Source: a virus
Length of the DNA: 64,000 bases
Virus record (IMG/VR): IMGVR_UViG_3300009159_000050
Coordinates: 25,967 to 89,966 of that record
Strand: one strand, 5' to 3'
In this document: positions 38,101 through 40,740 of the stretch, piece by piece
How positions within the stretch are numbered: position 1 is the first letter of the stretch
Layout of the letters: every line of letters starts with the position of its first letter
Made by a program: the position numbers and the translations under genes
Notes under the pieces: model-generated
Database searches by the model: none
Seen by the model: the letters and a program-made list of their open reading frames with translations, nothing else
Told to the model about the DNA's origin: nothing

Positions 38101-40740
38101 CTATGTTATAGACAAATTATCATATGTAGACCCAGCATTATCATTTACGCTACCACTATTTATCGCTGAAGGGGTCTTAATAACCCCAGCATAAGAAGAT
38201 GCACCAGCTGCAGGCTTAGCTAAATCAGTACCATCAACACGAGCATAAGATGCTGTTCCTAAGACTGTGCCAGATAAATCACTATATGCAGTAGCAGATA
38301 TATTATTTCCGCTTGTTGTTACAGAAATTTTCTTCACCTTTTGAAATTCTGAAGTATTTGTATTAATATTTTCATCTTTTAAAACTGCTACATAAGAAGT
38401 ATATCCTGTAGACATAATTCTTAATTGAGTATAGTAGGTATTTGTTGTAACTAAGTTTGTAACCTGTTGGCCCGTGCAAGAATAGGATGTTACTACTGGA
38501 GTTGAGGTATCTCTTCCTGTGCAGGTATATGCAACTGGTGTTGAGGTATCTCTTCCTCTACAAGTATATGTGGTGGGGGTTGTAGCAGTAGAATAGGTAC
38601 ATGAAAATTGTGTAACAGTTGTATAGTATGTTGTGTTTGTGGCTGCAACTGCGGGGGCTCTAAATAAATTTACTCCACCAATTGGTTGAACGCAAGCTCC
38701 ACATCTTGTTCCAACAGTTGATGCATTATATGTGCTAGTTGTTGGGCTTGCATTACATGCCGCTAAAGTTGAATAATTCTGTGTTGTTCCAGTACACCCA
38801 TAGGTAGTACTTGTAAATGGCCCATCTTGGTAAGATGTGTCAGATATTGTACAAGAGGATGGACAAGCTGCTTGCGCTTGGAAATAGTTAGGATAGTTGT
38901 AAGTTGTTCCACTTCCACAAGAGTAAGATGTAGATCCAGAAACTGTACTTACTGTACAGCCAAAACAGCCAGTTCCGCTAGCATCTGTGGCTTTGTCTAC
39001 GGGAAAATTACAGTCTGAAGACGTTGTTGCTGGAATAGTTGTTACTGGGCAGCCGTAACAATTTGGACTTGTTCCATTAGAGTTAGTATAAAATGCTCCT
39101 GCATTACAGTCAGAGGAAGTTCCTCCTGATGTTGATGTAGTTACAGTACATCCATAACAATTAGGATTTGTTCCATTTGAATTTGTTGAAATTACTGATC
39201 CATTACAATTTGTTGAAGTAACATTTTGCGAAGAGGGTATTTGATAATAAGATGGAGCAACTGCATAAAATGATCCTGCTCCGCTTATCCAGAATGCTAC
39301 TCCTGGTCCTCCACCACCAGATGGGATTTCAACACTTGCAGTTAAATCTGTTTTAGAAGTAATCTCTAAAGCCTTTATTGGATATGATACTGCAGCACTT
39401 CCTGGATTTAGAGGACTGGTGTACGGAGTAAGGTTGGTTGAGTTAACTGCTTTTAGTCCATCTGTGCTCCAAGAAGAAGGCGCATGATATTGATAAGGCC
39501 CATGAACAACATCACTATATATATATCCGCTACTTGATGTTCCAAGTCCTGATGGTACTGCTGTCCTATCAAAATTATCAATGACTGTTCCAACACGTGC
39601 TGTTACAACTGGAGAATAATAATAATATGTGACAGCACCATTTGATGAAACTACCGCATCTCTTGCATAAAACTTTTTATTTGGAGTAGTTGCATCATCT
39701 TGAGTTATTGGATATGTTGGTGGACCTATTGTATCTATAATTGTTGCGGAAGAAGATACTTCTCCATCTGTTGGAGCTGTATATGGTGATAAATAATAAA
39801 CTATTTTTGTTGTGGAACTAGTTGTATACCCGCCCAGTTGATAGGTTCCAGAGGATGCTGTAATTGATGTAAATGCAACTCCAGTTCCAGAAAGTGAAGG
39901 TGAAGATATTTGAACTGGTGTTAGTACAGCAATAGTTGTTGTAGATACAGAAGAACTTTCATTTCCACCGTACCCTGTATTTGATCCAGAGACAATACCT
40001 CCAGTATAAGGAGTAACATAAAAGGTGTATGATGTACTTGCAGATAGGCCTGTAACAGTTATTGTTGTTGTCGGGCTTCCGCTGCCAGCAGATCTAAAGT
40101 ATCCTTCTTCTATACCTATACCGCTATATGTGTATCTAACCAAGTAGCTTGAAGAGTATGCTCCAGCAGTAAATTGAAGTTTTACAGAATCGTATGTTGT
40201 ATCTGCGGTTACTACACTTAGGCTAGATATGTCTCTTGCTGCAGAAACGGATTGAGTCTCAGATGTTGAAGTAGATGTAGCTCCTCCAGAAGATGTTGCG
40301 GTAACAGAAAATCTATACAAGTTATCAACATTTGGGTATACATCAGATGCATTATCTATTAGCTGATACGTATATGTGTTACTAGATCCTACAGAGGGAT
40401 TAGTTGCAGTTCCGCTTGATATTGTGGCCCAAGATGAGCCTCCGTTAGAGCTCCTTTGAAAAACATATGATTGCGTTGAAGAGTTAGACCAATAATAATT
40501 TGTTCCTGTTAAAGTAATTAACTTAGTAGATGTGTTTGTAGACTGAGACAGTTCTACTTTTTCTGCTATTGATGGTCCATTAATTGTATCAGTGCCAAAA
40601 AATATTTTCCAAGCTCCAGCAACCTTTAAATATCCAGCGGCAACATTTTTCCAAGCACCTCCCACTTTTAATTTAATTTGAGAAACAGGTTTCCATTCAG
40701 AACCGCCTAAGCCATCGCTGGTTTTTAGTTTAATCGTCAT
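38101..40740 (-). CDS. Tail fibre or receptor-binding protein with FN3/Ig-like domains and a Cys-rich insert
   Basis: LKVGGAWK..GYLKVAGAWK N-terminus; VTGLSASTSYTFYVTP (FN3); 20-Cys insert. Confidence 0.7.
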   Translation of the reverse strand: MTIKLKTSDGLGGSEWKPVSQIKLKVGGAWKNVAAGYLKVAGAWKIFFGTDTINGPSIAEKVELSQSTNTSTKLITLTGTNYYWSNSSTQSYVFQRSSNGGSSWATISSGTATNPSVGSSNTYTYQLIDNASDVYPNVDNLYRFSVTATSSGGATSTSTSETQSVSAARDISSLSVVTADTTYDSVKLQFTAGAYSSSYLVRYTYSGIGIEEGYFRSAGSGSPTTTITVTGLSASTSYTFYVTPYTGGIVSGSNTGYGGNESSSVSTTTIAVLTPVQISSPSLSGTGVAFTSITASSGTYQLGGYTTSSTTKIVYYLSPYTAPTDGEVSSSATIIDTIGPPTYPITQDDATTPNKKFYARDAVVSSNGAVTYYYYSPVVTARVGTVIDNFDRTAVPSGLGTSSSGYIYSDVVHGPYQYHAPSSWSTDGLKAVNSTNLTPYTSPLNPGSAAVSYPIKALEITSKTDLTASVEIPSGGGGPGVAFWISGAGSFYAVAPSYYQIPSSQNVTSTNCNGSVISTNSNGTNPNCYGCTVTTSTSGGTSSDCNAGAFYTNSNGTSPNCYGCPVTTIPATTSSDCNFPVDKATDASGTGCFGCTVSTVSGSTSYSCGSGTTYNYPNYFQAQAACPSSCTISDTSYQDGPFTSTTYGCTGTTQNYSTLAACNASPTTSTYNASTVGTRCGACVQPIGGVNLFRAPAVAATNTTYYTTVTQFSCTYSTATTPTTYTCRGRDTSTPVAYTCTGRDTSTPVVTSYSCTGQQVTNLVTTNTYYTQLRIMSTGYTSYVAVLKDENINTNTSEFQKVKKISVTTSGNNISATAYSDLSGTVLGTASYARVDGTDLAKPAAGASSYAGVIKTPSAINSGSVNDNAGSTYDNLSIT
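38495..38570. repeat. 39-bp tandem duplication encoding YTCxGRDTSTPV twice
   Basis: ACTGG[A/T]GTTGAGGTATCTCTTCCT...GTATATG occurs twice. Confidence 0.8.

What the first reader, a model, noticed from the sequence alone, without database searches (positions are those of the whole stretch)
38460..39225. Nested out-and-back 20-cysteine stalk-and-knob insert in a tail protein
Seen: four outgoing units have 3 Cys each (TNC..NCYGC; SDC..NCYGC; SDC..GCFGC; YSC..ACPSSC). A central unit has 4 Cys (YGC..AAC..RCGAC). Four return strands have exactly 1 Cys each (FSC, YTC, YTC, YSC). The count is 4x(3+1)+4, and both arms contain recent duplications. The rest of the 879-aa protein has no Cys. Inference: each outgoing unit is completed by one return strand (two disulfides or one metal site). 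This gives a Russian-doll antiparallel stalk whose length changes by paired duplication and which presents a tip knob, conceptually like bovine ultralong CDR-H3.
Basis: partly seen in the sequence, partly recalled or inferred. Interest (0 to 1): 0.72.

Follow-up and report, generated by a model that had tools for sequence, protein, structure and literature searches.

The report
Split-module cysteine-zipped stalk on phage adhesin
The last tail gene of an uncultured lake phage encodes a sugar-binding-type head domain from which a long two-armed spike projects, apparently zipped by cysteine bridges in which every three-cysteine unit on the way out is matched by one cysteine on the way back.

Summary
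Observation confirmed: the 879-aa ORF (38101-40740, minus strand) has 20 Cys, all at residues 512-755, arranged as four 3-Cys units, one 4-Cys unit and four 1-Cys strands.

In 44 of 44 relatives carrying this insert, the number of open 3-Cys units equals the number of single-Cys strands. Counts run from 0 to 4 layers. Seven proteins have the arms in reversed order. The automatic rule balanced 36; 8 needed manual module assignment. Layer state changes at least 11 times on a tree built without the insert.

Disulfides are favoured over metal sites. Cysteines are lost in pairs, half-modules persist, and 27 of 40 Cys counts are 2 mod 4.

The insert sits between two strands of a concanavalin-like lectin sandwich resembling actinophage receptor-binding domains. 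The tip is a swapped cassette.

Direct Cys-Cys geometry could not be read because no model coordinates are returned. AlphaFold is unsure about the two middle layers.

This scan earlier noted symmetric 1+1 cysteine-ladder hairpins on lectin domains of other lake phages. This is a 3+1 variant. My literature searches found no description.

The parts
38101..40740 (-). Whole gene: 879-aa distal tail protein (adhesin or fibre), last gene of the tail module
   Evidence: ORF. Neighbours are phrog minor-tail families. Synteny is conserved in L002 and L003. There are 116 homologs and 165 representative hits.
39409..40740 (-). Residues 1-444: N-terminal strands with repeated W-K motifs, FN3-type domains and a linker domain. 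This is the conserved anchor/shaft part shared with many proteins that have other C-termini.
   Evidence: Weak Pfam fn3 hit at residues 178-248. phrog_25859 at residues 15-93. Foldseek on the whole model returns FN3 tandems, e.g. 8bnq_A E 2.8e-8. Most hits cover only residues about 1-300.
39226..39408 (-). Residues 445-505: first part of the lectin-like beta-sandwich head, ending in the strand that runs out into the stalk
   Evidence: VIA-align matches span the model discontinuously from 8 to 435. DSSP strand 492-519 in model 2.
38932..39225 (-). Residues 506-603: outgoing arm units T1 (C512, C528, C531), T2 (C545, C561, C564) and T3 (C577, C592, C595)
   Evidence: T1/T2 DNA repeat. pLDDT is 66-79 for T1 and below 50 for residues 539-577.
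38821..38931 (-). Residues 604-640: outgoing unit T4 (C608, C626, C630; strand, helix, C-x3-C)
   Evidence: DSSP E603-616 and H619-625, pLDDT 74-84.
38605..38820 (-). Residues 641-712: tip, a contiguous 4-Cys module (C649, C662, C680, C683) plus the following strands. This is the swapped cassette.
   Evidence: pLDDT 81-93. Identity to relatives is decoupled from the backbone. The module consensus is seen in tandem in other homologs.
38461..38604 (-). Residues 713-760: return arm with four single-Cys strands, S1 (C714), S2 (C727), S3 (C740) and S4 (C755)
   Evidence: S2/S3 is a 39-nt tandem repeat at 89%. DSSP strands 712-721, 724-727, 736-740 and 750-778.
38104..38460 (-). Residues 761-879: second part of the lectin-like beta-sandwich head

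Best explanation
The protein is a distal tail adhesin of an uncultured, roughly 100-kb lake siphophage. Its C-terminal head is a concanavalin-like (CBM/galectin-type) beta-sandwich. Between two neighbouring strands of that sandwich lies a 255-residue hairpin spike made of five four-cysteine layers.

The innermost layer (C649, C662, C680, C683) is a complete copy of a small 4-Cys module. Other relatives carry this module as beads in tandem. The four outer layers are split copies of the same module. Three Cys come from the outgoing arm (one Cys plus a C-x2/3-C knuckle) and the fourth comes from a Y/F-x-C strand of the returning arm. The order is nested: T4-S1, T3-S2, T2-S3, T1-S4.

Each layer is most likely closed by two disulfides formed once the virion reaches oxic water. 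One joins the return Cys to a knuckle Cys, covalently zipping the two arms. The other joins the unit's first Cys to the other knuckle Cys.

Splitting the module lets a rod of beads return to its starting point, so it can sit inside a loop of the lectin domain. Adding or removing a layer requires a matched change on both arms, and this sets the reach of the spike. The tip (about residues 604-720) is exchanged as a cassette between phages and probably contributes to host-surface recognition together with the lectin head.

Shown: Cys pattern, equal unit numbers, paired Cys losses, lectin-like fold of the head, tip mosaicism, tail-module context.
Inferred: the nested register of the middle layers, the disulfide chemistry, the bond map inside a layer, and the function.
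For: 1. Equal numbers. In 44 of 44 relatives with this insert, open triples equal single-Cys strands (36 by an automatic rule, 8 after manual assignment of non-canonical modules). States run from 0 to 4 layers and include 7 proteins with singles first and triples last.

2. Repeated change. The layer state changes at least 11 times on a tree built from 40 of these proteins with the Cys region cut out. The 3-layer state occurs in five separate places among 4-layer relatives.

3. Same module. The contiguous 4-Cys unit (C-x8-12-C-x10-17-C-x2-C) occurs in tandem in homologs, e.g. eight in P0079. In P0248 the same triple sequence occurs both with an adjacent Y-S-C strand and without one.

4. Complementation at the fourth layer. 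The S1 Cys column is Cys in 23 of 23 aligned sequences with an open T4 triple. It is not Cys in 14 of 14 sequences that have a self-contained module or none at that position.

5. Nesting at the centre. In relatives with an extra module, the last Cys before the central unit and the first Cys after it are both replaced in P0008 and in P0021, which lie in separate clades, and in no other of the 32 sequences that carry them.

6. Nesting at the base. AlphaFold2 draws two 28-29-residue strands, 492-519 (with C512) and 750-778 (with C755), flanking the insert. T4, the tip and S1 (residues 605-724) have pLDDT 74-93.

7. Disulfides rather than Cys4 metal sites. 38 of 40 Cys clusters are even, but only 11 of 40 are multiples of four. 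Half-modules keeping two of the four Cys exist in P0243 and P0127.

9. Tip cassette. Tip identity to the window protein is 82% in P0024 (N-terminal part 58%) but 39% in P0008 (N-terminal part 74%).
Against: No Cys-Cys distance or bond was seen. The structure tool returns no coordinates.

Both AlphaFold2 models have pLDDT below 50 for T2-T3 (538-581 and 539-577) and for S2-S3 (728-749 and 729-748), so the middle layers are unmodelled.

Equal numbers show completion but do not fix the register. The nested order of the middle layers rests on chain topology.

Virion proteins fold in a reducing cytoplasm. No phage sulfhydryl oxidase was found, although that search was uninformative because its control found nothing anywhere.

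The two arm duplications in this gene differ in age (89% versus 72% nucleotide identity), so they were not one simultaneous event here.

Eight of the 44 counts depend on my manual reading of odd modules.

The 44 sequences are related and mosaic. Some of the 11 state changes may be transfers of a whole insert rather than new duplications.

No binding function is shown for either the head or the tip.
Confidence: 0.68

Rival explanations
1. Same nested architecture, but each four-Cys layer is a tetrahedral metal (Zn or Fe) site rather than two disulfides. This would fit folding in the reducing cytoplasm.
For: Each layer has exactly four Cys and includes a C-x2-C knuckle. The window protein's count, 20, is a multiple of four. 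Virions assemble in the cytoplasm (established knowledge). A small Cys-rich DUF6171-like ORF and a thioredoxin-fold gene are present in the record, but nothing links them to this protein.
Against: 27 of 40 relatives have Cys counts of 18, 22 or 26, which cannot all sit in Cys4 sites. Cysteines are lost two at a time with the other two of the module kept, as in the P0243 central unit and the P0127/P0243 half-unit. A half metal site would not be kept. There is only one knuckle per unit, and no conserved His, Asp or Glu ligands appear in the alignment. Other homologs carry 2-Cys repeats at the same place.
Confidence: 0.12
2. The completion is between chains. In a dimeric or trimeric fibre, the return strands of one subunit complete the outgoing units of a neighbour, so the spike is a covalently cross-linked bundle and not an intrachain hairpin.
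For: Equal unit numbers are also expected under swapping. Many phage fibres and receptor-binding proteins are oligomers (established knowledge). In Douge the BppU carrying a similar CBM is a homodimer (passage of PMC13033339).
Against: The monomer model already pairs the strands flanking the insert and gives the T4-tip-S1 region pLDDT 74-93 as one chain. The insert begins and ends in adjacent strands of one sandwich, which an intrachain hairpin satisfies most simply.
Confidence: 0.12
3. There is no long-range completion. The Cys-rich region is a string of locally folded knots, and the equality of unit numbers is a by-product of shared ancestry.
For: Other homologs at the same position do use strictly sequential Cys repeats (P0032/P0033, P0038, P0040/P0044, P0079). 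AlphaFold2 is unsure about the middle layers.
Against: A 3-Cys unit and a 1-Cys strand each leave an unpaired Cys. Layer numbers of 1 and 3 rule out pairing singles among themselves. Equality holds across at least 11 state changes and in the reversed-order proteins. The S1 Cys is present exactly when T4 is open (23 of 23 versus 0 of 14).
Confidence: 0.05

Closest known systems
Carbohydrate-binding (concanavalin-like / CBM) receptor-binding domains of actinophage tail tips: TM4 gp23 C-terminal RBD (PDB 9n6a), Douge BppU gp23 CBM (PDB 8zdo; PMC13033339), Lactobacillus phage J-1 Dit CBM2 (PDB 5ly8), Bacillus CBM66 (PDB 4b1m)
Symmetric 1+1 cysteine-ladder hairpins inserted in lectin-like domains of uncultured freshwater actinophage proteins
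   Same: Same setting (lake phages of about 100 kb, lectin-like head, long two-armed Cys-stapled spike). The same rule applies: the two arms stay matched while the length changes.
   Different: Those are described as one Cys per arm per rung. Here each rung is a split 4-Cys module, with three Cys on one arm and one on the other, plus a complete module at the tip and reversed-order variants. I did not examine their sequences. A look-up by sequence found no look-alike stretch in the scan.
Bovine ultralong CDR-H3 'stalk and knob' (abstracts of PMC12371982, PMC5994613 and PMC10523490)
   Same: A long two-armed projection from a beta-sandwich domain presents a small variable disulfide-containing tip.
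   Different: The bovine stalk is a plain beta-ribbon and the cysteines are in the knob. It is up to about 70 residues, versus 255 here. Its diversity comes from somatic processes, whereas here it comes from recombination between phages. There is no homology.
Disulfide networks in phage virions: Agrobacterium phage Milano (PMC10811340; title and start of abstract only) and Mycobacterium phage Jabs (abstract of PMC13419713)
   Same: Both show that virions assembled in the cytoplasm can end up with many structural disulfides. The Jabs abstract reports about 1,700.
   Different: Those bonds link or stabilise capsid, tail and sheath subunits. Their abstracts describe no modular Cys-rich spike with matched arms.

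Membership tests
Phage distal tail fibre / receptor-binding protein | Encoded in the tail module downstream of the tape measure and baseplate-type genes | tested here: met
   Gene order is 2904-aa ORF (called the tape measure in scan note e1-6120399; not scanned here), 1661 aa (phrog_10359), 185 aa, 785 aa (phrog_11445), then this gene. The same order is found in L002 and L003.
Phage distal tail fibre / receptor-binding protein | Conserved N-terminal anchor with a variable distal part | tested here: met
   Most of the 116 and 165 hits share only residues about 1-300 and have other C-termini. Mosaic identity along the protein.
Phage distal tail fibre / receptor-binding protein | Binds a host surface receptor | not testable with these tools
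   No host is known. The genome-contig scan found no relative.
Concanavalin-like lectin / CBM beta-sandwich | Two-sheet jelly-roll sandwich fold | tested here: met
Concanavalin-like lectin / CBM beta-sandwich | Sequence membership in a curated family | tested here: not met
   No Pfam hit in residues 445-879 at E up to 0.1. No PDB sequence hit at E up to 1.
Cys4 zinc ribbon / zinc knuckle modules | Cysteines in sets of four, with two C-x2-C knuckles per site and all four ligands kept | tested here: not met
   One knuckle per unit. Only 11 of 40 Cys counts are multiples of four. Half-units with two Cys are kept in P0243 and P0127.
Cystine-ladder beta-hairpin (theta-defensin / tachyplesin type; features recalled, not from a call) | One Cys on each strand per rung, with parallel cross-strand disulfides | tested here: not met
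   Rungs here have 3+1 Cys and are 46 residues long (33 out, 13 back). The bond geometry is not testable.
Bovine ultralong CDR-H3 stalk-and-knob | Cys-free beta-ribbon stalk with a disulfide-rich mini-domain at the tip, in an Ig V domain | tested here: not met
   16 of 20 Cys lie in the stalk layers. The host domain is lectin-like, not Ig. The resemblance is one of shape only.
Diversity-generating retroelement target | Reverse transcriptase and template repeat near the variable region | tested here: inconclusive
   No RVT_1 match in the 89,966-base record, which is estimated 84% complete. The variation seen consists of cassette swaps and unit indels.

The most novel reading that the evidence does not exclude
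A small 4-Cys bead module that normally forms linear tandem rods has been topologically split. One of its four cysteine-bearing strands is supplied by the chain on its way back. This turns a rod into a covalently zipped hairpin that can be planted inside a loop of a lectin domain. Its length is tuned in whole layers by matched indels on the two arms. It is built in either chain direction, and it carries an exchangeable tip cassette that sets host specificity. This would be a natural, evolvable 'stalk with adjustable reach' for phage host recognition, and a general design principle for loop-inserted rods.
Probability: 0.4. Interest if true: 0.75.

Novelty: new variant of a known kind. Interest (0 to 1): 0.62.

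Why it matters
If the bond map holds, this is a clear natural case of long-range structural coupling that can be read directly from sequence. Two distant segments of one chain must change copy number together, and they do so in every relative examined.

It offers three things:
- a compact, probably very stable, length-adjustable scaffold that presents a swappable tip;
- a candidate host-range determinant for abundant uncultured lake phages whose hosts are hard to grow;
- a hard test case for structure prediction, since AlphaFold2 fails on the near-identical middle layers.

It also adds to the evidence that phage virions make heavy use of structural disulfides despite assembling in the cytoplasm.

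Tried and rejected
**Reading Cys pairs from models.** Two AlphaFold2 jobs were run. Only pLDDT and DSSP are returned, and no coordinate file reaches the script box. S-S distances could not be measured.

**Complex prediction.** I ran the outgoing arm plus tip (residues 506-712) against the return arm (713-760), both cut from alignment A1. The result was no verdict: scores 0.45, 0.02 and 0.02 against a mark of 0.32, and the controls were not run. This counts neither for nor against.

**Fold searches.**
- Foldseek/PDB on the whole model returned only FN3 tandems from the N-terminal part.
- Foldseek/PDB on the C-terminal model gave nothing at E of 0.001 or better. The weak top rows were long-hairpin pore toxins, E 0.17 and worse.
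- BFVD gave 5 hits at E of 0.001 or better, all 'Uncharacterized protein [uncultured Caudovirales phage]'.
- The ESM Atlas gave no usable hit.
- The insert alone was never folded or searched by itself, so I make no claim that its fold is new.

**Sequence libraries.**
- No match among 50,697 phage records by tblastn.
- No PDB sequence match.
- For P0079 only an E 0.13 hit to an Ig chain.
- No Pfam family over the Cys modules of 9 homologs.

**An inference I withdrew.** I first read P0127/P0243 as a joint loss of the C630 and C714 equivalents, which would have been a direct T4-S1 bond. Their 2-Cys unit is in fact a half copy of the central-type module. It supports 1-3/2-4 bonding in contiguous modules, not a specific long-range bond.

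**Other points left undecided or discounted.**
- Motif and spacing cannot decide whether the open triple corresponds to module Cys 1, 3, 4 or to 2, 3, 4.
- The start of T1 and the end of S4 change together across relatives. I do not count this as structural evidence, because one swap of the contiguous inner DNA segment would give the same pattern.

**Redox genes.**
- A thioredoxin-fold ORF is present.
- The glutaredoxin match is the same ORF and falls below the cut-off.
- The Erv1/Alr search found nothing, but its control also found nothing anywhere, so it is uninformative.

**Host.** The genome-contig scan found no relative.

**Literature.** Searches found no description of such an insert. 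Terms used were: phage, tail fiber, disulfide, cysteine-rich, receptor-binding protein; bacteriophage, CXXC, tail, disulfide, repeats, metagenom; mycobacteriophage, Douge, baseplate, cryo-EM; cystine ladder, bacteriophage. The CASP16 paper passages were irrelevant. Supplements are closed and may hold relevant structure tables.
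Full report
**What is there.** The window is bases 25967-89966 of an 89,966-base IMG/VR virus record estimated 84% complete. The region of the finding lies in one ORF, 38101-40740 on the minus strand, 879 aa. The protein has 20 Cys, all between residues 512 and 755 (bases 38476-39207), and none elsewhere. They form four units of three Cys (C-x15/14/17-C-x2/3-C), one unit of four (C-x12-C-x17-C-x2-C) and four single Cys in F/Y-x-C strands 13-15 residues apart. The chance that 20 Cys fall in one given span of this size is 7e-12. 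The phage's other virion proteins are Cys-poor: 0 of 2904, 0 of 378 and 2 of 785.

**Context.** The gene is the last of the tail module. It follows a 2904-aa ORF, a 1661-aa protein (phrog_10359, minor tail), a 185-aa ORF and a 785-aa protein (phrog_11445, minor tail, FN3). After it come small ORFs and the replication genes for helicase, primase, SSB and DNA polymerase. The 2904-aa ORF is called the tape measure in an earlier scan note (e1-6120399); I did not scan it. Two related IMG/VR contigs keep this order. That same note calls this an uncultured lake phage with a T5-like tape measure; I did not test that.

**Domain layout.** AlphaFold2 with a 54-row alignment (mean pLDDT 79) and Foldseek show N-terminal strands followed by FN3-type domains. 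A second model of residues 445-879 with a 37-row alignment (mean pLDDT 75) was compared with 48,161 PDB chains by VIA-align. The parts outside the Cys region match concanavalin-like sandwiches:
- Many galectins.

The aligned range runs from model residue 8 to 435 with only about 126-146 residues aligned, so the sandwich is interrupted by the insert. In Douge, the BppU CBM (116-311) binds mycobacterial glycans (passages of PMC13033339). The protein is therefore a distal adhesin with a lectin-type head. The 255-residue Cys region (506-760) is inserted between two of the head's strands.

I parsed the Cys clusters with a fixed rule:
- An open triple is a Cys 8-25 residues before a C-x2/3-C knuckle.
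- It becomes a contiguous 4-Cys unit if an unused Cys lies 7-15 residues upstream.
- Everything else is left over.

The results for the 37 proteins sharing the window's arrangement:
- The number of open triples, plus any stray Cys before the central unit, equals the number of single Cys after it.
- This holds in 29 by the rule alone.
- It holds in the other 8 (P0018, P0023, P0025, P0026, P0130, P0243, P0119, P0122) only after I assigned non-canonical modules by eye.
- Arm layers number 4 in 15 proteins, 3 in 8, 2 in 7, 1 in 5 and 0 in 2.

Seven further proteins have the reverse order: single-Cys strands first, then a core, then the triples. All seven balance by the rule, as 3/3 five times, 4/4 once and 1/1 once. 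On a tree of 40 of these proteins built with the Cys region removed, the layer state changes at least 11 times. The 3-layer state appears in five separate places among 4-layer relatives. Because the proteins are mosaic, some of these changes may be transfers of a whole insert. No unbalanced protein was seen in any case.

**What the unit is.** Other homologs carry the complete 4-Cys unit (C-x8-12-C-x10-17-C-x2-C, often with C-P after the second Cys and G-x-R before the third) as tandem beads. P0079 has eight in a row. The window's central unit fits this pattern. In P0248 the same triple sequence occurs both with a Y-S-C strand eight residues upstream (complete) and without one (open). The number of distant single strands matches the open ones. 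In the 37-row alignment, at the fourth layer, the S1 column is Cys in 23 of 23 sequences with an open T4 triple. It is not Cys in 14 of 14 sequences that have a self-contained module or nothing there. The outer layers are therefore best read as split copies of the bead, with one strand supplied by the returning chain.

**Nesting.** Three observations bear on the order.
1. In relatives with an extra module that the window protein lacks, the last Cys before the central unit and the first Cys after it are both replaced in P0008 and P0021 only. These lie in separate clades. This is the signature of a bonded pair that brackets the centre.
2. That extra module and its C-x4-C partner on the return side are present together in 32 and absent together in 5 of the 37 aligned sequences.
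3. At the base, AlphaFold2 extends the two flanking sandwich strands to 28-29 residues: 492-519, holding C512, and 750-778, holding C755.

The T4-tip-S1 region (605-724) has pLDDT 74-93 and T1 has 66-79. T2-T3 and S2-S3 are below 50 in both models. These are the near-identical repeats. The nested order of the two middle layers therefore follows from chain topology and counts, not from a model.

**Disulfide or metal.** Cys clusters are even in 38 of 40 relatives. Only 11 of 40 are multiples of four; 27 have 18, 22 or 26. Units that have lost two Cys keep the other two. Examples are the central unit of P0243 and an extra half-unit in P0127 and P0243, both keeping the first and third Cys. This fits two independent disulfides bonded 1-3 and 2-4, and fits a four-ligand metal site poorly. 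By homology, the two knuckle Cys of a split layer do not bond to each other. One takes the return Cys and the other takes the unit's first Cys. Which is which cannot be decided from motifs or spacing. Disulfide-rich virions are known: Jabs from its abstract, and Milano from its title and abstract start.

**Tip and length.** Identity to the window protein in the tip (641-712) is decoupled from the rest:
- 82% in P0024, 79% in P0021 and 81% in P0027, whose N-terminal parts are 56-59% identical.
- 39% in P0008 and 32% in P0013, whose N-terminal parts are 74% and 64% identical.

The tip is a cassette exchanged between backbones. No reverse transcriptase is present in the record. In the window gene, S2/S3 is a 39-nt tandem at 89% and T1/T2 is a 99-nt repeat at 72%. 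The arms do duplicate, but these two events were not simultaneous.

**Comparison and novelty.**
- The head is an ordinary actinophage-type CBM by fold only. No Pfam or PDB sequence match was found.
- The Cys modules match no Pfam family.
- My four literature searches found no description.
- This scan has earlier notes on symmetric 1+1 Cys-ladder hairpins in lectin-like domains of other lake phages. The present case is the 3+1, split-module variant, with reversed-order relatives.
- The bovine CDR-H3 likeness is one of shape only.

I rate it a new variant of a known kind, of real interest for protein architecture and phage host recognition. Its bonds are unproven.

Noticed in passing
window 37557-37832 (-): A 91-aa ORF two genes downstream of the adhesin, with about 8 Cys in C-x2-C-type motifs. 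It has a weak DUF6171 hit (E 8e-4, below cut-off) and a phrog_13558 hit (E 2.6e-13, unknown function). It may be a small metal-binding protein. No link to the adhesin is shown.
   Followed up: no
window 11898-12137 (-) (G000:C1:37864-38103): A thioredoxin-fold ORF of 88 aa (PF00085, E 2.5e-15, above cut-off). This is the only thiol-redox gene found in the record. Its role is unknown; it may serve nucleotide reduction or virion thiol chemistry.
   Followed up: partly
window 35834-36394 (-): A 186-aa ORF after the tail module. It matches phrog_1084 (E 1.3e-18) and phrog_3304 'L-shaped tail fiber protein assembly' (E 1.5e-7) over its C-terminal 55 residues. It is a possible fibre-assembly chaperone or small fibre protein.
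   Followed up: no
homologs P0032, P0033, P0038, P0040, P0044, P0079, P0091, P0207: Relatives with the same N-terminal anchor carry quite different Cys-rich arrays at the same position. Examples are 20-aa two-Cys repeats, 32-aa two-Cys repeats, C-x10-C-x11-C-x-C units and up to 44 Cys. The site appears to be a hot spot for Cys-repeat invention.
   Followed up: partly
window 40752-43109 (-): The neighbouring 785-aa tail protein (FN3, phrog_11445) has only two Cys, 15 residues apart (187 and 202). This may be a single local disulfide.
   Followed up: no
P0022 (columns 397-431): This 3-layer relative carries a second, displaced copy of part of the central-unit sequence, with 4 extra Cys at residues 228-253, inside its shaft region. 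It looks like an ectopic insertion of the tip cassette.
   Followed up: no
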